Below, piece by piece: positions 22,703 to 31,767 of a stretch of 64,000 bases of DNA. The notes under the pieces were generated by a model. It was not told the DNA's origin and did not search any database. It saw nothing but the letters and a program-made list of their open reading frames with translations. This DNA is from Escherichia coli (GTDB taxonomy: Bacteria; Pseudomonadota; Gammaproteobacteria; Enterobacterales; Enterobacteriaceae). The stretch's first letter is position 1. The number at the start of each line of letters is the position of its first letter. The DNA is taken from the NCBI GenBank assembly GCA_009729775.1, contig GCA_009729775.1_4081.1; one strand, 5' to 3'. The position numbers and the translations under genes are program-made.

Positions 22703-22927
22703 CTACTTATTATTTGGGTTTGGTATACAGTACACATATACTAGATTACTAAAGTGTTCAGTACTGGAATATTTTGCTAACTCAGTAATGTGAAAGTTCT
22801 TGTCATAAAACCTTCCACTATTGAATGTTGTTATTTGGCAACAATGTATAGGTCTGAAAATATAATAATAAAATATATCATTTTCAACTACAACAGTATG
22901 GTTTGTATAACGCTCGATTTTCTTCAT
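22703..22927 (-). CDS. hypothetical protein (74 aa)
   Basis: ORF track. Confidence 0.45.
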   Translation of the reverse strand: MKKIERYTNHTVVVENDIFYYYIFRPIHCCQITTFNSGRFYDKNFHITELAKYSSTEHFSNLVYVYCIPNPNNK

Positions 22928-23292
22928 GTGTGGATAATTTCCTTAACCCCGTATTCCATAATTGCTAATGTGCAAATTTCACATGGTTTAGCAGGTACAG
23001 GAATACCATCTTTACTTATCCGTGCAATCAGTAAAGTATGAACATCAGCACGTGCAGCTAATAAGCAAGAAATTTCAGCATGGAGAAATTCACCTTGTGG
23101 ACGTCCAGCACGAATTGCAAAACCTTTCTGTACTGGATGTGTCTGTGTATAAGAATTTGTGCGTGTTGCCAGTACTCGACCTTTTTTATCCAGTGCACGA
23201 GCAATCACACGATACCGCTTGTAGTTCCCTACTTGCTCAATAGGTGGCATCCGGCGTAATTCTTCAACAAGTTTCTCCAATTTACTATTCAT
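22924..23292 (-). CDS. small CDA-fold zinc deaminase (TadA/cytidine-deaminase-like), 122 aa
   Basis: HAEISCLLAA ... PCEICTLAI = H(A/C)E...PCxxC zinc-binding signature; Arg-rich; gene GC ~42% vs ~33% background (hand count). Confidence 0.65.
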   Translation of the reverse strand: MNSKLEKLVEELRRMPPIEQVGNYKRYRVIARALDKKGRVLATRTNSYTQTHPVQKGFAIRAGRPQGEFLHAEISCLLAARADVHTLLIARISKDGIPVPAKPCEICTLAIMEYGVKEIIHT

Positions 23293-23915
23293 AAGTCTAA
23301 GTCTATACCCTTTTCAAGTGATTTTTCTAGAACCCAAAGTTTACATTCTTCACTCTCCAAATGTATCTTTGCCTCTTGCTGTTCTTCTATTGTACAAGAC
23401 TTTATGAATGCACGCAAGGCTTGGATTGTATTTTTTAAATTTTTTATGTCATCGATAATTTTTTCTTTGGTTTCTTCATCGATTACACATGAACTCCAAC
23501 TGTGTCGTTCCTCCCAAACTGTTTTAGTGGGATTATAAATTGATGATGTCGAAATAGCTACATGGATCTTATTAAATTCATCGTCCGCTTCTTGTTGGGT
23601 GTAATCACCATATGTTCTTAGCACATTTTTGTATAATTCATCAATGGCCTCTTCATACGTATCACCACCACAATCCAATTGATAATCATGTGCTTGTACC
23701 CATTCGTCGTCTTGCTCAATATACATTGGTGAAAGAAATTCTACCCAAAATTGAGTCTTTGTATTCAATGCTTTGAAATCTTCAATTCGATTTGTCATTG
23801 GACACACATCATGAGGTTCTATATCAATCCTAGCTGGAACCATATCTTTGTTTATGAATTTAGGATGACCCAAAATCCACCAGTACTTTTCCGATGTAGT
23901 CATAGTAATCTCCAA
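23289..23915 (-). CDS. hypothetical protein (208 aa)
   Basis: ORF track. Confidence 0.6.
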   Translation of the reverse strand: MEITMTTSEKYWWILGHPKFINKDMVPARIDIEPHDVCPMTNRIEDFKALNTKTQFWVEFLSPMYIEQDDEWVQAHDYQLDCGGDTYEEAIDELYKNVLRTYGDYTQQEADDEFNKIHVAISTSSIYNPTKTVWEERHSWSSCVIDEETKEKIIDDIKNLKNTIQALRAFIKSCTIEEQQEAKIHLESEECKLWVLEKSLEKGIDLDL

Positions 23916-23949
23916 TTAAAAAGTACTGCACACGATGGCAGTACTGATG

Positions 23950-24309
23950 TTAAACGTAACGTTTCTTTTTATAATCATACCCTACTGCTTTGTAAAAGTC
24001 AAACAAAGAAGCATGTTCAAATGTAGGTAATAGATCATATGGGTGCTGATAGTTCGCAATACCAACAATAGCCATCATTGATTCAGCAGTTCTTACGTTC
24101 TCACTATCCCATTCATCTAAACGCCAAAGTGAGCAAAGTACCTCTCGTTCATGTTGCTTACCCAGAAAGAATCCAGCTTCACGGTCACGAAATGCACCTA
24201 CACTGACAGTACTTTTGTACCAGTCTTTTTCACCATATAATGGCATACGGATAATATGTTTTTCTTTAGCTTCTCCAAAGCGATGAAGAAATGCTACATA
24301 ATCACTCAT
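23950..24309 (-). CDS. hypothetical protein (119 aa)
   Basis: ORF track; ATG 24307-24309. Confidence 0.55.
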   Translation of the reverse strand: MSDYVAFLHRFGEAKEKHIIRMPLYGEKDWYKSTVSVGAFRDREAGFFLGKQHEREVLCSLWRLDEWDSENVRTAESMMAIVGIANYQHPYDLLPTFEHASLFDFYKAVGYDYKKKRYV

Positions 24310-24476
24310 AATTTATAACCCATTACAGGTTTGGTATGATCCGGTTCGTAAGACTTTTCAGTACTGAACCCTCTGAAATTACCACGACCTGGATTCGGGC
24401 AAGCCATTCCTTGTACTGAATGCTTACCCTTATCTTTGCCACAATTTTTACATTTGTAGTCAATTACTTCTTTCAT
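24306..24476 (-). CDS. small zinc-ribbon-like protein (56 aa), not in ORF track
   Basis: hand translation MKEVIDYKCKNCGKDKGKHSVQGMACPNPGRG...; ATGA overlaps with both neighbours. Confidence 0.4.
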   Translation of the reverse strand: MKEVIDYKCKNCGKDKGKHSVQGMACPNPGRGNFRGFSTEKSYEPDHTKPVMGYKL

Positions 24477-24721
24477 TGTGCATCCTTCGGAACAGTATTA
24501 AGACGTTTGCGATTCACAATCTTCCTGCACATGAGGTTAAGATCTTGCCCATGACGCATAGTATGACATGCGTATAGTGTTCCTTGATGATTTAGTTTTG
24601 TTAAACCTTGACGGATGATTTCAGCATCCATCTCATCAACTTTAGGAGCACAACCACAGAGAATAATGGATACAAATATTGTTAATGTAATGAATATATT
24701 TTTCATGATATTTTTTCTCAT
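24473..24721 (-). CDS. small lipoprotein (82 aa)
   Basis: signal peptide with lipobox ILCGC. Confidence 0.5.
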   Translation of the reverse strand: MRKNIMKNIFITLTIFVSIILCGCAPKVDEMDAEIIRQGLTKLNHQGTLYACHTMRHGQDLNLMCRKIVNRKRLNTVPKDAQ

Positions 24722-25098
24722 TTAGTAAAACACGAATTATTACTGATAAGTTCATCAAGTACGTTTTGTACTTCGATAGAATTAATATCAACTTTGTAAT
24801 AATTATAGTTTTTAACTCTAAAATGTTCTTTTGATATATCAACTTTAAATTCAATAATATCAAGATTACCAATAAAATCAGACTTATCAGTTCTTAAATC
24901 CAAAATACCTAATTCCGGTTTTTGTGGTTTACATAAAATCAAACCAAATTTATTTTCTTCAAATGCCTGATTAAACATATCATAATAATCACTAATAACA
25001 AATCTAATATTATCAGTGCTTAACTTTCCTGATTTTCCTTTTTTATAAACAGAAACAATGTTTAGTTCAAAGGTTTTACCAAAGCGTGTGATTTTCAT
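24718..25098 (-). CDS. hypothetical protein (126 aa)
   Basis: ORF track. Confidence 0.55.
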   Translation of the reverse strand: MKITRFGKTFELNIVSVYKKGKSGKLSTDNIRFVISDYYDMFNQAFEENKFGLILCKPQKPELGILDLRTDKSDFIGNLDIIEFKVDISKEHFRVKNYNYYKVDINSIEVQNVLDELISNNSCFTK

Positions 25099-26066
25099 TT
25101 TGGGCTATAACCACTTTTAATTTTAGAAATTACTTTCTTCTCGAAGAACTTACGTGCTTCTTCAATAGTTTCGAATTCTTCACCATCTGTAGTACTAGTT
25201 TTACCAATAGAACCGTACTCAATAATTACTTCACACACTGGAGCATTCAATTCAATATTATAGAATTTGTTTGAAGAATCGTGAACATATTCCAAATGTA
25301 CATTATCAGGAATGTTCTGTACATAATCATAGTTCTTGAAGATAATATCAATCATATTTTCTTCGCCGCGATCAGGAAATATTTCAGTATTATTGAGTAC
25401 TAAACGCTGTGCAGCACGGAACATATCAAAATATTGTTCGCCTTTTTTCAGTTCTTTTGTATCAGAACAGAAATGACCATAATATTCTACATAATCATTC
25501 CAAGGATAAATTCCTTCATCAGCAGTTTCAGACACGTAAGTTTCATCTTGTGGAACTTTAAAACCACGAGTTTTTGGATGAGAAATTAAGCACAGTGAAA
25601 TATTATGACCGATATCTGAATCATCAGTAATACTACCACCAACCATATGAACAACATTTTTAATACTTTCAAAATCTACATCTTCAATTTCATGATACAT
25701 TAAATGTTCTTCAATATTACTTACTAGTAATGAATTACCATTTCCGGCATCGAATTCAAAAATGAAAAGTTCTACACAATCTTCTTCTTTCATTTCAATA
25801 GTATCACTGAGTTTAATATACTCATTTTTTAATTGTTCAATATTTTCATGAGAACCAAAACTATAACGTGAACTGATATAACTACTACCGTCCAACCATC
25901 CCATATCCCAAGGTTCTTCTGACATGTATTCTGAGCTATAGAAATCAGTCAAATCATCTCTCTGAGTACAAACCGTAAGAGAACGAACATTACTAAGACC
26001 TTGAACTTCAAGATTCAGCACTGTAGTATTGCCAATTTTTTGTTCAGAAATAATTTTAGTTTTCAT
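25095..26066 (-). CDS. protein with C-terminal WGR-like domain (323 aa)
   Basis: C-terminus NKFYNIELNAPVCEVIIEYGSIGKTSTTDGEEFETIEEARKFFEKKVISKIKSGY resembles the WGR motif pattern; N-terminal 260 aa unassigned. Confidence 0.55.
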   Translation of the reverse strand: MKTKIISEQKIGNTTVLNLEVQGLSNVRSLTVCTQRDDLTDFYSSEYMSEEPWDMGWLDGSSYISSRYSFGSHENIEQLKNEYIKLSDTIEMKEEDCVELFIFEFDAGNGNSLLVSNIEEHLMYHEIEDVDFESIKNVVHMVGGSITDDSDIGHNISLCLISHPKTRGFKVPQDETYVSETADEGIYPWNDYVEYYGHFCSDTKELKKGEQYFDMFRAAQRLVLNNTEIFPDRGEENMIDIIFKNYDYVQNIPDNVHLEYVHDSSNKFYNIELNAPVCEVIIEYGSIGKTSTTDGEEFETIEEARKFFEKKVISKIKSGYSPK

Positions 26067-26283
26067 TTAAAATACCTATTGAATTGATTTACGCCATTTG
26101 GCTAGTTTAACATTCATGTAAGTAAGGAACTCACGTTCCATCTCTTCTGAACTCATATTATCGCATTACAAAGCGAACATGTCAAGTGCACAAATGCAAA
26201 GATCTACAGCTTCACCTTTGACACCATCTTTACCTGCTTCTTTATATGATAACCCATCACGGATGTTCATATTTCATATCATC

Positions 26284-26934
26284 CTACTTTTTCGATTGGA
26301 ACAATGCAATCTGTACGCGTGTGATGAACTCACGCTCTACTTCTTCAGCACTGTGTCCTTCATATTGTGTCTTGAAAAGTTCCATTGCTTTTAGGGCCAT
26401 CTGTACAGAAATGTCTGTAATACTTTCAGTACTGGTGCTTTCAAATACGTTTTTGATGGTTAGTTCACCATCACAAACATCATCAACTACAACTGGGGTA
26501 TTGTTTTGTTCATCAATGTAACGTAAAGCTTTGTACTCTGCTTTTGTTAGATTTTCATACCAACGTGGGTGGTGGAACAAATCATGCATTGTAACTTTTG
26601 CTGCTTCCATGAGAAGTAATAGCTCTTCATTTCTGCGAATATGTTTTTCTTCACCTTTATGATTTTTGTAAGTATATGCACAACGCATAATGGCTAATCG
26701 AACTTCACCTGCTTTGGTGATAGTGTATGAATGTATTGCATTATCATAATCACTTTCCCATTTCTGACCAGCATATTCGTACCAAAGTTCATTAGTTTCC
26801 CATTTAATGAAATCAAATTCTAACAAACTGTCAATCAACTTAGCCAAATTACCACTGTACTCACGGCTAATGATATTGAAACCACCATTGTACTTTGCAA
26901 GGTACAGAATCTTTTCTTGAGTTACATTTTTCAT
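26284..26934 (-). CDS. hypothetical protein (216 aa)
   Basis: ORF track. Confidence 0.6.
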   Translation of the reverse strand: MKNVTQEKILYLAKYNGGFNIISREYSGNLAKLIDSLLEFDFIKWETNELWYEYAGQKWESDYDNAIHSYTITKAGEVRLAIMRCAYTYKNHKGEEKHIRRNEELLLLMEAAKVTMHDLFHHPRWYENLTKAEYKALRYIDEQNNTPVVVDDVCDGELTIKNVFESTSTESITDISVQMALKAMELFKTQYEGHSAEEVEREFITRVQIALFQSKK

Positions 26935-27272
26935 TACATGTAATCCTTGATGTATTTTAGCAGTTTAGATTTCTCTTCGGTACTTAATGATTTCTTGTTC
27001 ATTAAGTGTTTCATTTCTTGACGTTCAATTTCTTCACATCTTTTAGATTCAGCTTCAATTCGTGTATTATATTCTTCGTCAGTTTCTTCTCTGGTCCAAA
27101 TTACATTGTATCCATGAAAACCGCCGTAACCACTGTCTGGTGAAAGACTAATGTGACCGTTATATTCAGCACGATACTTATTAAGAGTGTCAATAAAGGT
27201 ATCAATGCCACACGGTTCAATTTCAATATAACCAATCACTACAGTAACGTCAATTTTGTTCATAAAGTTCAC
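26934..27272 (-). CDS. hypothetical protein (112 aa)
   Basis: ORF track. Confidence 0.55.
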   Translation of the reverse strand: MNFMNKIDVTVVIGYIEIEPCGIDTFIDTLNKYRAEYNGHISLSPDSGYGGFHGYNVIWTREETDEEYNTRIEAESKRCEEIERQEMKHLMNKKSLSTEEKSKLLKYIKDYM

Positions 27273-27290
27273 CTATAAAATTAGGGAGCA

Positions 27291-27848
27291 TTAGCTCCCT
27301 TTGTATTGATGTTTATGTTTTGTACTGTATTTCCAGCCAGTACTATGTCTTGTTCTGATATCGTCCCAATACGATGGTAATGAACGCATCTTACGTCTTC
27401 CACGTATATCAGGTTCCCCCTCATCCTTCAGTACTGCACAAGCCATACGACGCTCTTGTTGAGTCTTAGGACGCTTGTATCGGGAGTGGTTATGTTTGTA
27501 CATATACGAACGCTTATGACGCCATTCCGTATCACGAGCTTTACGTTTATGTTCCCAGTACTCATTATAGAGTATCATGTATTCACCCATAAGTAAATCA
27601 GGAGATACAAGTAATCCTTTTTCAGTACAAAGATAATAACCCACAAACTTTTCTGGAAACATTTCGTAATAGAAACGGTTCTTCCAAAATGTTTCACGAT
27701 TCTTTTTGTTGAATTCTGCTAAATCAAATTTCATCTTACTGTGGAAACGATCTATCCCTTGATGGTCAGCAATGTATTGAAGTAGATCGTCTACAATCTC
27801 AACTTTACCAGAATCGTGATACAACGTAAATGTTTGGTCAAAAAACAT
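27291..27848 (-). CDS. hypothetical protein with strongly basic C-terminus (185 aa)
   Basis: ORF track; K/R/H-rich tail. Confidence 0.55.
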   Translation of the reverse strand: MFFDQTFTLYHDSGKVEIVDDLLQYIADHQGIDRFHSKMKFDLAEFNKKNRETFWKNRFYYEMFPEKFVGYYLCTEKGLLVSPDLLMGEYMILYNEYWEHKRKARDTEWRHKRSYMYKHNHSRYKRPKTQQERRMACAVLKDEGEPDIRGRRKMRSLPSYWDDIRTRHSTGWKYSTKHKHQYKGS

Positions 27849-27944
27849 ATGAAATCTCCTTTAAGTTAAAATAACCTAATGGAAAGTCATTCTTCCTTTA
27901 ATACATGTTCTCATGATTTGTTCCTTTTGTCAAGATATAGATAT

Positions 27945-27970
27945 AAAAAATCCCTGCCAAAAGACAGGGA
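27945..27970 (-). terminator. intrinsic terminator (TCCCTG/CAGGGA) plus U6 ending the 33.5-28.0 kb transcription unit
   Basis: perfect 6-bp stem, 8-nt loop, A6 on plus 27945-27950. Confidence 0.5.
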
Positions 27971-27990
27971 CGAAAAACTGAAATAACACA

Positions 27991-28055
27991 TGGAGTTCTT
28001 TTTAATTTAATAAAAAGTATTATTATTCTTATAAAAGTATTTATTAAGAACTCCA
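27991..28055. repeat. 10-bp perfect inverted repeat (TGGAGTTCTT / AAGAACTCCA) separated by ~45 nt of AT-rich DNA
   Basis: seen directly in the sequence between gene 28075..28263 and the terminator. Confidence 0.4.
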
Positions 28056-28074
28056 CAATATTGCTTCAAATGAA

Positions 28075-28263
28075 TCAAAAACCTTTCTGAGCTACTAGTT
28101 CACGGTACTGTGCACGAGTTAGTACACCTTGCTTGCGTAGAGCTTGTAGACCGGATAGGGTTTCACTCTTACGTTGTTCGTACATACGTTGTTCTTTGGA
28201 TTGAATAACTTTCTCTTTCTTAACTTTTGCTACTGGTTCTTGTTTCTTAGGTTGTTTAGCCAT
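28075..28263 (-). CDS. small basic protein with SHOCT-like C-terminal motif (62 aa)
   Basis: AAGGAG RBS; MAKQPKKQEPVAKVKKEK... then LSGLQALRKQGVLTRAQYRELVAQ; own promoter/operator upstream; GC ~40%. Confidence 0.55.
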   Translation of the reverse strand: MAKQPKKQEPVAKVKKEKVIQSKEQRMYEQRKSETLSGLQALRKQGVLTRAQYRELVAQKGF

Positions 28264-28294
28264 TTTATATCTCCTTCTGTATTATGATAACAAC

Positions 28295-28326
28295 ATTATA
28301 TCATGTATGGGACATAATGTCCCATA
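28295..28326 (-). promoter_or_regulatory. extended -10 promoter (TGaTATAAT) overlapped upstream by a 21-bp palindrome TATGGGACA-N3-TGTCCCATA (candidate operator)
   Basis: plus attatatca 28295-28303; palindrome 28306-28326; RBS and ATG of 28075..28263 follow. Confidence 0.5.
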
Positions 28327-28331
28327 CAATA

Positions 28332-29771
28332 TTACATATTTTCTTCAGCAAATTCAGCCAGTGGTGAACGAACAACACCTTCTAGTTCGATGACACGACA
28401 ACCTGCCCAGTCTTTAAACTTCTCAGTTACATATGTCAAACCACTGTTAACAGGACTAATAAACTTACTGTCAATCTGACTCAAGTTACCCATAATTACT
28501 ACTTTACAGTTTAACCCTGCTCGTGTCAAGATGGTTTTTGCTTGTGCAGGTGTAATGTTTTGGAATTCATCAACTACTAGAATAGTGTTGGTGAATGAAC
28601 GTCCACGTACAAAGTTTAGTGCTTTAAATTGAATAACATTACGTTTCATAATCTCTTCAATACTACCTTGTGGATTGGCATCATCTTTATGAAGAAACTC
28701 TAACGCATCAATCGCGGCTCCACAGAATGGAATCACTTTTTCTGCTTCTGAACCTGGCAAGAAACCAATATCTTCAAACTGTGAGTCTTGAGTTTTAGAG
28801 AAGATGATTCGGTCGTATTTACGTTTTTCCAGTACTAATTCTAATGCAGTAGCAATTGTAATTAGTGTTTTACCAGTACCAGCAGAACCTAGCAGTACTG
28901 TTAGATGTACATCAGGATCGAGAATACTGTTGATGGCGAGTGCTTGTTGGATATTCTTTGCTTTAATATCCCATACTTTAGCACGTAAAGCCACTGATTG
29001 TCCAATGTCTTGGAATACCAAAATATCTTCTGGTGTTAGTGTTCCATCATCTTCCTCAATTGCTGATTGTCCTTCGTACACAAATAATACGTCAGCATCA
29101 TCATATAGATAATCACCGATGCATAGATTTTGTGGAAGCAGATGTTCAATCAAGCTTTTAGAAATGTAATGATACAAACGACGACCAACTTGTTCGGATT
29201 GAATATTAGTATTGGTTAAGTTGCTGTATACTTCCCAAAAATTGATTTCCAGATGGTGTTGACCAATGTGAATCAAATCACTATCACCAATAACAATATC
29301 ATGGCGATAATCTTGTACCTCGACACCATAACTTAGTGCTTTGATACGCATGTTGATATCACGAGTTACCAGTACTGATTCTGTTGCTAAAGCTACCAGA
29401 ATGATTTTATCATCAGGTACAGTACTTTTGAGAAGGGTTTGAACTTTCTCTTCTGTACCTTTAGTACGAATTAGTGCCTCAGCTTCTTCGTTTGTAATAA
29501 CAAACAATTTGCTATCAGGATTCATATTGGTATGAACATCAGCAATATTAACACCAGTACTACTAATCTCGTCATGTGATGCATCTGCAATAATTGCTTC
29601 AATGTTACGAATAGCAACACGAGCATCGCGTGAAACATCTACATTACGACTCTTAATCGAATCTAATTCTTCCAGTACTGTAAATGGTAGAATGATTGCA
29701 GCACCATCAAAAGCAATAGATGCATTAGGGTCAGATAGTAGTACGTTTGTGTCAATTGTATATTTTTTCAT
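28332..29771 (-). CDS. phoH: PhoH2-type protein: N-terminal PIN domain fused to PhoH-like ATPase (479 aa)
   Basis: PIN signature (YTIDTNVLL, ILPFTVLEELD); Walker A VLLGSAGTGKT and PhoH-like C-terminal half. Confidence 0.85.
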   Translation of the reverse strand: MKKYTIDTNVLLSDPNASIAFDGAAIILPFTVLEELDSIKSRNVDVSRDARVAIRNIEAIIADASHDEISSTGVNIADVHTNMNPDSKLFVITNEEAEALIRTKGTEEKVQTLLKSTVPDDKIILVALATESVLVTRDINMRIKALSYGVEVQDYRHDIVIGDSDLIHIGQHHLEINFWEVYSNLTNTNIQSEQVGRRLYHYISKSLIEHLLPQNLCIGDYLYDDADVLFVYEGQSAIEEDDGTLTPEDILVFQDIGQSVALRAKVWDIKAKNIQQALAINSILDPDVHLTVLLGSAGTGKTLITIATALELVLEKRKYDRIIFSKTQDSQFEDIGFLPGSEAEKVIPFCGAAIDALEFLHKDDANPQGSIEEIMKRNVIQFKALNFVRGRSFTNTILVVDEFQNITPAQAKTILTRAGLNCKVVIMGNLSQIDSKFISPVNSGLTYVTEKFKDWAGCRVIELEGVVRSPLAEFAEENM

Positions 29772-29831: not shown

Positions 29832-30134
29832 TTACATATTTGGTTCGTATTCAACATAGCAACGTGAACCTCGAACCTTTTCTTCCCAGCACTCCTGGTA
29901 AACAAGTTGACCAATTGAAACTGGTTCTCTTGATAGTCCATTACGTACTTCACCACTTTGGGTTTTATACATGAATGAACATTTGGACTCGCTACATTGT
30001 CCTAAACTAACAACTTCTGCGGTATTGTAGTGAATGTTGGTACGCTTAGTGTTCTCGTGATACTGTCCGAACCAAAGAACTCCTGCACCTAACAGAACAG
30101 TACAAATAAGACTTTTGATGTGTGTTTGAATCAT
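29832..30134 (-). CDS. small secreted or membrane-anchored Cys-containing protein (100 aa)
   Basis: N-terminal hydrophobic segment LICTVLLGAGVLWF; five Cys. Confidence 0.5.
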   Translation of the reverse strand: MIQTHIKSLICTVLLGAGVLWFGQYHENTKRTNIHYNTAEVVSLGQCSESKCSFMYKTQSGEVRNGLSREPVSIGQLVYQECWEEKVRGSRCYVEYEPNM

Positions 30135-30451
30135 AATGCGTTAAATCCATTGTTTAAGTATGTTTCAATATTAATTTTACCAACAGGATTACTACTGTGA
30201 ACAAAGTACTCAAACGGTTCTTTAATATTATTATCAAACATATAATCAATAAGAAACTTAGCAAAAGAATATCCAGTCTTTTCGTCTTCGCTCACATCAC
30301 CCAAGTCATGGTCGAATGATACAAATGCTGGAATTCCATTTTCAATAACATATTCACATGCACTTTTAAAGTCACGACATACCACCATATCTTGGTTTGG
30401 ATAATATAGATTTGCATCACGAATATCATCCAAAAACATTGCGTAAGACAT
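30131..30451 (-). CDS. hypothetical protein (106 aa)
   Basis: ORF track; ATGA overlap. Confidence 0.55.
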   Translation of the reverse strand: MSYAMFLDDIRDANLYYPNQDMVVCRDFKSACEYVIENGIPAFVSFDHDLGDVSEDEKTGYSFAKFLIDYMFDNNIKEPFEYFVHSSNPVGKINIETYLNNGFNAL

Positions 30452-30460
30452 GTTAAACTC

Positions 30461-31012
30461 CTATAGATAACTAATTAGTAAGTTTTCTTTTTGAATCAGA
30501 TACTCCAATTCTTGTTTTGCTGTACCGATGAAGTTCTGTGTCATAAGATTATTATATCCCGCTTCTCGATTTTGTCCCTTAGAATAACGAGAAATATGAC
30601 ATAAATTTACACCAGCAACTTCAGCACTCGCATGTTTAGCATTAGTGTATCCATCTCTAATGTGTTTCAACTCGTCATAGCTTACTTCATAGCTAAAACT
30701 ATGACTGTTTGCACCTGGGTAAATTTCAAAAGTTTTGAGTGGTCGAAGATGGGAAACAAAAATATTGTAATCCATTTCTTCTTGAACTTCACGACGCAAC
30801 GCATCTTCTAGTGAGATATCAGTACTTTCAACTGTTCCACCACATCCTCCTAGAAGTCCATCCCAACGTAATTGTAGTAATACCAGATTTACTTCTGGTA
30901 TATCATTTAACTCATAGTTTTTGTAAGGGTTGCATTTTCTTGCAAAGAAATAGCAAAATACAAAATTTGCACGTGAGCCATATTCACCAAAGGGAACTTC
31001 TTTAACACTCAT
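30461..31012 (-). CDS. Nudix-family hydrolase (183 aa)
   Basis: Nudix-box-like GGCGGTVESTDISLEDALRREVQEEMD (REVQEE core; spacing slightly atypical); start overlaps Sir2-like stop (ATGA). Confidence 0.6.
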   Translation of the reverse strand: MSVKEVPFGEYGSRANFVFCYFFARKCNPYKNYELNDIPEVNLVLLQLRWDGLLGGCGGTVESTDISLEDALRREVQEEMDYNIFVSHLRPLKTFEIYPGANSHSFSYEVSYDELKHIRDGYTNAKHASAEVAGVNLCHISRYSKGQNREAGYNNLMTQNFIGTAKQELEYLIQKENLLISYL

Positions 31013-31767
31013 TTCATACGTTCCTTAATTATAGTCTCTAGATGTGGTATTGCTTTGGTTGCTGGCTTGATAACTTTTTCATTAAACAAAAAATCATTAT
31101 CATTTTTACGAATGTTAACATTAACACTATAACATGGTAATGCTGCTGCTAATCTCGACCATACCAGTACTGTATCGCTACTACCAATTACAATAACTGT
31201 ATCATTTTCATTAAGAGATTTCAACACATTATTTCGTTCTTCGTAAATTGGTAAGCGTATACCATCAACATAACGATGATATTCTCCAATCATTACTACA
31301 TTTGGTTTAGCAAAAACATCATGTTTTGGTATGTATGGTTCGTATCCGCAGTTAATAACATTATAATCATCAGAATTGATACTATAATTTTCAATAACTT
31401 CACACAAGTTTCCATGAAGTTTAAGCTCATGACCACCAATACGAGTATAAAGATCGTCCATGTTAGAAGTCATATGAAGGAAGCAATCACCATATTGATC
31501 TTCTAACGATTTTATAAAATAATGCATTGCATTTGGTTCGCATTGTCCCAATTTTACACGTAATGTATTATAGAAAGAATGAACAACATGATATTTTGTA
31601 GTTAAACTAGCAATGTTACATACATCATTAATTTTAAATGTATCCCACAAACCATCATCAAATCGAAAAGGTTCCATCCCACTTTCAACGGAAAGTCCTG
31701 CACCTGATATAATCAGTAATCGTTTTTTACCTTCATTGCTTATAAATTTTTCTGATATCATATTCAA
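31009..31767 (-). CDS. Sir2-family (sirtuin-like, NAD-binding) protein lacking the Zn-ribbon (252 aa)
   Basis: ISGAGLSVESGMEPFR (GAGIS..SGIP.FR), TSNMDDLY (TQNID.LH-like), LHGN, VIVIGSS; no Cys4 module. Confidence 0.8.
   Translation of the reverse strand: MNMISEKFISNEGKKRLLIISGAGLSVESGMEPFRFDDGLWDTFKINDVCNIASLTTKYHVVHSFYNTLRVKLGQCEPNAMHYFIKSLEDQYGDCFLHMTSNMDDLYTRIGGHELKLHGNLCEVIENYSINSDDYNVINCGYEPYIPKHDVFAKPNVVMIGEYHRYVDGIRLPIYEERNNVLKSLNENDTVIVIGSSDTVLVWSRLAAALPCYSVNVNIRKNDNDFLFNEKVIKPATKAIPHLETIIKERMK

What the first reader, a model, noticed from the sequence alone, without database searches (positions are those of the whole stretch)
25095..26066. WGR-like C-terminal domain on a 323-aa phage protein
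The last ~60 residues (YNIELN...VIIEYGSIGKTSTTDGEEFETIEEARKFFEKKVISKIKSGY) match the WGR pattern, which is best known from PARPs and bacterial nucleic-acid-binding proteins. The N-terminal 260 aa are unassigned. A WGR protein in the same genome as Sir2/Nudix hints at ADP-ribose or nucleic-acid-break-related functions.
Basis: inference. Interest (0 to 1): 0.45.

Follow-up and report, generated by a model that had tools for sequence, protein, structure and literature searches.

The report
Jumbo-phage WGR protein, orphan N-domain
The gene really does encode a protein ending in a WGR nucleic-acid-binding domain, but this is already annotated in GenBank and cited in a 2021 jumbo-phage survey; it has no PARP enzyme part, shows no specific tie to the phage's Sir2/Nudix genes, is dispensable, and its acidic front 250 residues match nothing known.

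Summary

The window is an Asteriusvirus (PBECO4/121Q-like E. coli jumbo phage). The gene is already labelled "WGR domain-containing protein" in several GenBank records. Its Ecwhy_1 ortholog, QAY00573.1, is the example Iyer et al. 2021 give for a jumbo-phage WGR DNA-binding transcription factor.

New here:
- The N-terminal 250 aa form a confidently folded (pLDDT 89), strongly acidic module.
- That module is found in only about 30 protein clusters among billions searched, and always fused to WGR.
- The WGR is of the short bacterial type. Tyr replaces the Trp, the Arg is lost, and the PARP2 5'-phosphate Tyr segment is absent.
- There is no ADP-ribosyltransferase domain.
- Sir2 (adjacent Nudix where annotated) occurs in 658 phage records, many lacking this gene, which is in only 18.
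- Near-identical phages (CRJP21, 121Q) lack the gene, and it was not detected in the phAPEC6 virion proteome.

Most likely role: an accessory intracellular nucleic-acid-binding regulator or adaptor. Function is untested.

The parts
25095..26066 (-). CDS of the 323-aa WGR-domain protein (stop codon 25095-25097)
   Evidence: ORF list and translation. 99% identical to WGR domain proteins of slurp01, PBECO4, G17 and phAPEC6. The exact sequence is WP_155851003.1.
25317..26066 (-). N-terminal family-specific acidic alpha/beta module (residues 1-250). Motifs FDAGNGxxLLVSN, GGSxxDDxDI and HPKTKGFKVP. Positions invariant across the whole family: G60, G71, N117, G144, D148, D149, P164.
25101..25301 (-). 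C-terminal WGR domain (residues 256-322)
26157..26185 (-). Candidate sigma70-type promoter (TTGACA-17-GATAAT with TG), about 90 bp upstream of the ATG. Unproven.
   Evidence: Best consensus match in 23800-28400. It lies inside ex-coding sequence, so its conservation is not independent evidence.
26079..26270 (-). 3' remnant (64 codons, one in-frame stop) of a UES1_434-like gene, filling the 'intergenic' gap upstream of the WGR gene
   Evidence: tblastn 96.9% identity to the UE-S1 gene's C-terminus. slurp01 and G17 annotate a 34-aa ORF here.
24718..25098 (-). Downstream 126-aa ORFan whose start overlaps the WGR stop by 4 bp. Not an obligate partner.
   Evidence: Only 3 clusters of close relatives and no domain. 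Absent from the WGR-carrying phages Ecwhy_1 and UE-S1 and from loci L002 and L003.
24664..26270 (.). 1.6-kb segment (gene remnant, WGR gene, 126-aa gene, 5' end of the 82-aa gene) that is replaced in phage CRJP21 by 216 bp holding a 59-aa lipoprotein-like ORF
   Evidence: blastn breakpoints and CRJP21 annotation.
23922..23945 (-). Terminator-like hairpin closing the run of overlapping genes (WGR, 126 aa, 82 aa, 56 aa, 119 aa)
   Evidence: Scan. G17 annotates a terminator at the equivalent place.

Best explanation
This is a non-structural, dispensable jumbo-phage protein made of two tightly packed parts. The C-terminal part is a genuine WGR domain of the short bacterial (MolR/2ra8-like) type. 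The N-terminal part is a 250-residue acidic alpha/beta module that exists only in this small phage family and only fused to WGR. The most likely mechanism is that the WGR domain binds nucleic acid, probably DNA, through its conserved Lys/Tyr surface (K267, Y269, Y284, K289, K310, K317). This would bring the N module to that site, where it acts as the regulatory or effector half, either through protein contacts or through a small conserved polar site (N117, D148, D149). That makes it a phage-encoded DNA-bound regulator or adaptor during infection, in line with the transcription-factor reading of Iyer et al. 2021. Shown here: the domain identity, the two-domain architecture, the absence of a PARP catalytic part, dispensability, and the narrow distribution. 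Inferred: nucleic-acid binding, its target, and the role of the N module. It is not a PARP, and it is not specifically tied to the Sir2/Nudix genes.
Against: No experiment exists for this protein or for any phage WGR protein. The whole protein is strongly acidic (net about -32), and in the window protein the WGR domain itself has net charge -4, which is unusual for a DNA binder. The eponymous Arg, essential for stable DNA binding in PARP2 (R153A shows no binding), is never present in the family. The PARP2 5'-phosphate-reading Tyr201 segment is missing because the protein ends at SGYSPK. The MolR 'transcription factor' role of bacterial WGR proteins is itself largely inferred.
Confidence: 0.42

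Rival explanations
1. PARP-like logic without PARP chemistry. The WGR senses DNA nicks or ends and allosterically switches on an unknown enzymatic activity in the N module, with N117, D148 and D149 as a metal- or nucleotide-binding site acting on DNA ends or nucleotides.
For: The few polar residues invariant across the whole family cluster in loops after beta-strands, in the SN and GGSxxDD motifs. The domains are tightly packed (pTM 0.89), as needed for allostery. WGR couples break-sensing to catalysis in PARPs and is fused to ligases. The gene sits in a nucleotide and DNA-metabolism neighbourhood containing dCMP deaminase, NrdD/G and PhoH.
Confidence: 0.2
2. Accessory host-takeover or anti-defence protein. 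The acidic N module acts as a decoy, as a DNA mimic or protein inhibitor against a host DNA-binding or defence protein. The WGR would serve as a targeting or protein-interaction domain.
For: The gene is present or absent among 98%-identical phages, with three alleles at the locus, which is typical of accessory conflict genes. The N module has net charge -20 to -35 in every member, and only 1 of 376 comparable windows in this proteome is as acidic. The family is narrow and fast-evolving. A possible sigma70-type promoter would fit early expression.
Against: No match to any PADLOC model (best E = 0.021), and no similarity to known DNA mimics. A 250-aa globular alpha/beta fold is unlike the known elongated mimics (from my own knowledge of Ocr and ArdA). 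Acidity is moderate for this proteome, ranking 6th of 78 ORFs. The promoter lies in ex-coding sequence and is unproven.
Confidence: 0.2
3. One reading: the protein works with the phage Sir2 and Nudix enzymes in an ADP-ribose/NAD-linked pathway, for example by reading or writing ADP-ribose marks at DNA breaks.
For: Sir2, a Nudt16-like Nudix and a cREC_REC protein lie 4.4-5.7 kb upstream on the same strand. The same order recurs in a divergent relative, L003. WGR is best known from PARPs.
Against: There is no ART, macro or PARP_reg domain. Sir2 is present in 658 phage records, the WGR protein in 18, and many Sir2-carrying clade members lack WGR. A PIN-PhoH gene and a predicted terminator separate the two gene blocks. 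Iyer et al. treat the two genes under separate systems.
Confidence: 0.05

Closest known systems
Bacterial short WGR proteins (COG3831 'predicted DNA-binding domain in MolR'; structure 2ra8 from Bacteroides fragilis; E. coli MolR/YehH; Deinococcus DR2173)
   Different: In those proteins WGR is N-terminal and is followed by DUF4132 or another, larger C-terminal domain. Here it is C-terminal, after an orphan acidic module. No DUF4132 or other partner domain was detected.
PARP1/2/3 WGR domains (DNA-break sensors)
   Different: No ART catalytic or helical regulatory domain. The residues matching PARP2 W151 and R153 are Tyr and a small residue (S/A/G/P), and the Y201 segment is absent. It is therefore not a PARP, and PARP-style 5'-phosphate reading is doubtful.
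Jumbo-phage 'WGR DNA-binding transcription factor' of Iyer et al. 2021 (example QAY00573.1)
   Same: It is the same protein family: QAY00573.1 is Ecwhy_1 gp294, in the same 90%-identity cluster as the window protein.
   Different: That paper gives only a one-line domain assignment. It does not describe the N module, the degenerate motif, the gene's dispensability or its distribution.
Other viral WGR proteins (stand-alone ~100-aa phage WGR proteins, phage PARP-like ARTs, pithovirus and ASFV DNA ligase N-domains)
   Different: None shares the N module, and no full-length match exists in BFVD.

Membership tests
WGR domain (Pfam PF05406) | Profile score above Pfam's gathering threshold | tested here: met
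   41.8 bits against 22, E = 1.2e-10, residues 256-322. Distant members score 26-33 bits.
WGR domain (Pfam PF05406) | WGR fold (beta-sheet plus C-terminal helix) superposable on solved WGR domains | tested here: met
WGR domain (Pfam PF05406) | Eponymous Trp-Gly-Arg motif | tested here: not met
   The motif reads Y284-G285-S286. Gly is invariant, Trp occurs only in P0011, and Arg never occurs (S/A/G/P instead). The motif is also degenerate in 2ra8 (Y-G-K), so this does not exclude membership.
PARP / ARTD enzymes | ADP-ribosyltransferase catalytic domain (H-Y-E) with helical regulatory domain | tested here: not met
PARP-type DNA-break-sensing WGR | Residues equivalent to PARP2 W151, R153 and Y201, which are required for stable break binding | tested here: not met
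   Tyr stands in for W151, no Arg sits at the R153 position, and the protein ends before the Y201 segment. The K130 and Y132 equivalents (K267, Y269) are kept. The mapping uses the PARP3 alignment, alignment A3 and PMC6294510, and is by motif, so it is partly inferred.
MolR-like WGR regulators | N-terminal WGR followed by DUF4132 | tested here: not met
   No DUF4132 hit, and WGR is C-terminal here.
MolR-like WGR regulators / phage WGR transcription factor | Sequence-specific DNA binding and an effect on transcription | not testable with these tools
   Needs EMSA, ChIP and RNA-seq. Only a literature assignment exists.
WGR-fused ATP-dependent DNA ligases | Nucleotidyltransferase and OB domains | tested here: not met
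Sir2/Nudix NAD-ADP-ribose module | Specific co-occurrence or operonic linkage with Sir2 and Nudix | tested here: not met
   Sir2 is in 658 phage records and the WGR protein in 18. 121Q, CRJP21, RaK2, Munch and GAP32 have Sir2 but lack this protein. A PIN-PhoH gene and a terminator lie between the two blocks.
Known anti-phage defence or anti-defence families (PADLOC) | Significant match to a PADLOC model | tested here: not met
   Best hit was ThsB TIR-like at E = 0.021 and 12.6 bits, which is not significant.

The most novel reading that the evidence does not exclude
The 250-aa acidic N module may be a previously undescribed functional domain, either an enzyme or a defence-protein inhibitor. 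It would have evolved in Asterius-like jumbo phages and be delivered to DNA lesions or ends by a degenerate WGR sensor. That would be a PARP-like 'sense a break, then act' device with new chemistry, carried as an optional accessory gene.
Probability: 0.15. Interest if true: 0.55.

Novelty: already known. Interest (0 to 1): 0.2.

Why it matters
As given, the finding adds nothing new. The WGR call is already in GenBank, and the ortholog is cited in the jumbo-phage literature as a WGR-type DNA-binding factor. What remains of interest is modest. No phage WGR protein has been tested experimentally. This one pairs a degenerate WGR with a well-folded orphan domain found in only about 30 protein clusters. 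Natural isolates with and without the gene exist (PBECO4 or slurp01 against 121Q or CRJP21), so a phenotype could be sought cheaply. A positive result would show what WGR domains do outside PARPs.

Tried and rejected
- **Wider homolog searches.** An exhaustive HMMER search of 1.84e9 representatives with the N profile gave 8 hits, one of them spurious (an FN3 repeat protein). A second profile search including the distant members again found only WGR-fused proteins.
- **A conserved partner gene.** The 126-aa downstream ORF overlaps the WGR stop but is an ORFan and is absent from other WGR-carrying phages, so I rejected it as a partner. The upstream genes are syntenic within the clade but absent from the distant branch.
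- **Paralogs.** Neither module has a paralog in the 64-kb window.
- **An early sigma70 promoter.** It is the best consensus match in the region, but it lies inside the remnant of a former coding sequence, so I kept it only as a candidate.
- **Source of QAY00573.1.** I first guessed it came from phage G17, which was wrong because G17 uses QBO accessions. A cluster look-up resolved it to Ecwhy_1.
- **Expression data.** The genome papers I opened for phAPEC6, fEgEco12 and Sharanji do not mention this gene. Only the phAPEC6 virion proteome was informative, and it was negative.

Full report
**1. The observation**

Window 25095..26066 holds an ATG-to-stop ORF of 323 aa on the minus strand. The plus-strand reading is full of stops.

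Pfam WGR (PF05406) matches residues 256-322 with E = 1.2e-10 and 41.8 bits, well above the curated cutoff of 22. NCBIfam matched only the same stretch, through a family that begins with a WGR-like segment. Single-sequence phmmer against PDB gave weak hits to the WGR of 2ra8 and PARP3. With a profile built from 27 homologs, the 2ra8 hit becomes significant at E = 1.7e-6.

The domain call is therefore confirmed, and it is far beyond chance.

**2. Where the window comes from, and what is already known**

The region is 98-99% identical to Asteriusvirus genomes (slurp01, G17, Sharanji, UB, PBECO4, phAPEC6), which are ~350-kb E. coli jumbo phages. Several of these records already annotate the gene as "WGR domain(-containing) protein". 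G17 notes the COG3831 match.

The exact window protein is WP_155851003.1, seen on a 344.8-kb contig in E. coli assemblies.

Iyer et al. [quoted passage not shown] The cluster look-up shows that QAY00573.1 is Ecwhy_1 gp294, in the same 90%-identity cluster as the window protein. Their SIR2 example, QAY00582.1, has an accession nine numbers higher, so it probably comes from the same phage, although I did not look it up. It is discussed under a separate NAD-centred system.

The finding as written is therefore already in the databases and the literature.

**3. Anatomy beyond the WGR**

A word-indexed search of 5.8 billion proteins returned 27 full-length homologs of 314-331 aa, 37-99% identical, all carrying PF05406.

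I then ran an exhaustive HMMER search of 1.84 billion cluster representatives with a profile of the N-terminal 250 aa only. It found eight proteins. Seven are real and all are fused to a C-terminal WGR: four close members plus P0028, P0029 and P0031, which are 21-24% identical to the window protein over their full length. The eighth is an FN3-repeat false positive. A further profile search that included the distant members again found only WGR-fused proteins. The N module is thus a very small, closed family that never occurs without WGR.

The N module folds confidently on its own (pLDDT 88.9). It has a beta-rich first half and a helical second half.

It matches nothing known:
- Pfam, PHROGs, NCBIfam and PADLOC gave no hit.
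- A profile search of PDB sequences gave nothing (best E = 1.4).
- BFVD gave only WGR-part hits.

Across the full family the only invariant N-module residues are G60, G71, N117, G144, D148, D149 and P164. D54, Y63 and G110 are conserved at 90% or more.

The module is acidic in every member, with net charge -20 to -35 and pI 4.05-4.7. The WGR part is near neutral, from -4 to +5. Within this window's 78 ORFs of at least 100 aa, the mean net charge is -3.2 +/- 4.5 per 100 aa, against -11.2 for the N module. Only 1 of 376 comparable windows is as acidic.

**4. The WGR subtype**

The alignment to PARP3 and the family alignment show the signature as Y284-G285-S286. Gly is invariant. The aromatic position is Tyr, with Trp only in P0011. 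The Arg position is S, A, G or P and is never Arg. 2ra8 reads Y-G-K.

Structural and mutational work on PARP2 (PMC6294510) gives the following:
- W151 stacks on the 5'-end ribose.
- R153 binds the 3'-side phosphate, and R153A loses stable binding.
- K130 and Y201 read the 5'-phosphate.
- Y132, K179 and K183 contact the backbone.

By motif correspondence through NKFY, the phage family keeps the K130 and Y132 equivalents (K267 and Y269, both invariant) and several helix lysines (K310, K317). It lacks the Arg, and it ends at ...SGYSPK, before the Y201 segment. This mapping is partly inferred.

The domain is therefore a short, bacterial-type WGR. Nucleic-acid binding is plausible. PARP-style 5'-phosphate nick reading is doubtful.

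**5. Genomic context**

77 of the 78 ORFs of at least 100 aa in the window are on the minus strand. The gene lies in a run of mostly unknown small genes bounded by terminator-like hairpins on the minus strand at 27971-27950 and 23945-23922 (G17 annotates equivalent terminators).

The WGR gene and the next four ORFs (126, 82, 56 and 119 aa) overlap by 4 bp each. On the transcriptionally upstream side lie PIN-PhoH (28332-29771), cREC_REC, a Nudt16-like Nudix and Sir2. On the downstream side lie a dCMP-deaminase-like gene (22924-23292) and, in relatives, NrdD/NrdG.

The broad order Sir2-Nudix-cREC-x-PhoH-...-WGR-...-deaminase-...-NrdD recurs in divergent relatives (L002, L003 and Erwinia phage Hallingskeid). 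This is clade synteny and does not show a specific linkage.

The distant branch of the family (P0031, P0050) sits in an unrelated, ORFan-rich viral context next to an adenylosuccinate-synthase homolog, with no shared neighbour.

The 126-aa ORF immediately downstream is an ORFan. It is missing from Ecwhy_1, UE-S1, L002 and L003, all of which do carry the WGR gene, so it is not a partner. No paralog of either module exists in the window.

**6. Dispensability**

tblastn finds the protein in only 18 phage records: 17 Escherichia phages plus Erwinia phage Hallingskeid at 39.6% identity. By contrast, 36 records match the surrounding DNA.

In CRJP21, whose flanks are 98% identical, window 24664-26270 is replaced by 216 bp encoding a 59-aa lipoprotein-like ORF. 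121Q is absent from the protein hits, and G17's notes on the neighbouring genes (PBI_121Q_483, _487) leave room for three 121Q genes in between, which fits the CRJP21-type layout.

Three alleles therefore exist at this locus: WGR plus the 126-aa gene, WGR alone, and neither. The gene is non-essential.

The phAPEC6 ortholog gp336c is not among that phage's 62 virion proteins detected by mass spectrometry, although the PhoH-like gp341c is. The WGR protein is most likely non-structural.

**7. The Sir2/Nudix idea**

tblastn with the window's Sir2 finds 658 phage records, with an adjacent Nudix wherever the records are annotated. These include the whole Asterius/RaK2-like clade: 121Q, CRJP21, E9.1, JP4, RaK2, K64-1, Munch and GAP32. 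Those eight all lack the WGR protein.

Co-presence in one genome is thus the trivial result of Sir2 being ubiquitous in the clade. With no ART, macro or PARP_reg domain in the protein, I rate the ADP-ribose link as unlikely (0.05).

**8. The promoter candidate**

The best sigma70-type match in 23800-28400 is TTGACA-17-GATAAT with an extended -10 TG, at 26185-26157 on the minus strand, about 90 bp upstream of the ATG. It is identical in slurp01, Ecwhy_1, UE-S1 and TH47. In Ecwhy_1 the homology begins only 7 bp upstream of the -35 hexamer.

However, window 26079-26270 is the last 64 codons of a UES1_434-like gene carrying one in-frame stop, at 96.9% identity. The element therefore sits in former coding sequence, and its conservation is not independent evidence. 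I keep it only as a candidate.

**9. Mechanism**

What is shown:
- a genuine WGR domain
- obligate fusion to an orphan acidic module, with confident inter-domain packing
- no catalytic PARP part
- not detected in the one available virion proteome (phAPEC6)
- dispensability
- no conserved partner gene

What is inferred from knowledge of WGR domains:
- They recognise DNA breaks in PARP1-3.
- They are fused to ATP-dependent ligases.
- They occur in DNA-damage-linked bacterial proteins (MolR, described as LexA-regulon, and DdrO-regulated DR2173).
- The Iyer et al. assignment.

My best reading is that the WGR tethers the protein to nucleic acid, probably DNA, and the N module acts there as a regulator or adaptor (confidence 0.42). 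The rivals are:
- a break-sensor coupled to a new enzymatic N module (0.20)
- an acidic decoy or anti-defence accessory protein (0.20)
- the ADP-ribose/Sir2 link (0.05)

The strongest points against DNA binding are the protein's overall acidity and the missing Arg.

**10. Verdict**

The WGR call is already known from annotation and from Iyer et al. 2021.

The additions from this work are the orphan status and rarity of the N module, the degenerate WGR motif, the accessory nature of the gene, and the lack of a specific link to Sir2/Nudix. Interest is low (0.2). The only route to something notable is experimental: showing what the N module does.

Noticed in passing
window 26079-26270 (minus strand): The 'intergenic' gap upstream of the WGR gene is the last 64 codons of a UES1_434-like 389-aa gene, 96.9% identical with one in-frame stop (CAA to TAA). 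The 34-aa ORF that slurp01 and G17 annotate here is this pseudogene fragment. Its C-terminal tail also resembles that of the neighbouring 216-aa gene (26284-26934), which suggests a recombination scar between paralogous long and short forms.
   Followed up: yes
window 24664-26270; L006 (CRJP21) 2165-2380: There are three natural alleles at this locus in near-identical Asteriusviruses: WGR plus the 126-aa gene, WGR alone (Ecwhy_1, UE-S1), or a 59-aa lipoprotein-like ORF (MKFLLVLIAVLMVLSCSV...) replacing both (CRJP21, and probably 121Q).
   Followed up: yes
window 28332-29771 (minus strand): A 479-aa PIN_4 + PhoH fusion protein. Its phAPEC6 ortholog gp341c is listed among the virion proteins detected by mass spectrometry (8 peptides, 30.9% coverage), so a PIN-PhoH NTPase/nuclease appears to be packaged in the particle.
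   Followed up: partly
window 30131-31767 (minus strand): A tight three-gene block: Sir2 (252 aa, TTG start as listed), a Nudt16-like Nudix (183 aa) and a cREC_REC 'cyclic-phosphate processing receiver' protein (106 aa). The genes overlap or abut. Sir2 homologs, with an adjacent Nudix where the record is annotated, occur in 658 phage records.
   Followed up: partly
L008 10112-11341; L009 9121-10350: The distant branch of the WGR family lies next to a 409-aa adenylosuccinate-synthase (PF00709) homolog in ORFan-rich viral-looking contigs. This could be a PurZ-like enzyme of a phage with modified adenine. Three ~360-410-aa genes of similar size sit just upstream of the WGR gene there.
   Followed up: no
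window 25095-26066; protein WP_155851003.1: The exact protein sequence is recorded from E. coli isolate assemblies on contigs of 342-350 kb. This fits reports of virulent Asterius-like jumbo phages persisting in bacterial isolates (bioRxiv 10.1101/2024.12.31.630880).
   Followed up: partly
whole window: 77 of the 78 non-overlapping ORFs of at least 100 aa are on the minus strand. The proteome is acidic on average, with a mean net charge of -3.2 per 100 aa.
   Followed up: partly
window 24473-24721 (minus strand): An 82-aa ORF with a lipoprotein-like N-terminus (MRKNIMKNIFITLTIFVSIILCGC...). It is conserved in L002 and L003, sitting before the WGR gene in L002 and after it in L003. A conserved 56-aa Cys-rich ORF (CxxC...C, phrog_10623) follows at 24306-24476.
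   Followed up: no
window 22924-23292 (minus strand): A 122-aa dCMP/cytidine-deaminase zinc-binding domain protein (Pfam 29.4 bits). This is much shorter than the matching PHROG dCMP-deaminase profile (384 positions). It is 84% and 67% identical to its counterparts in L003 and L002.
   Followed up: no
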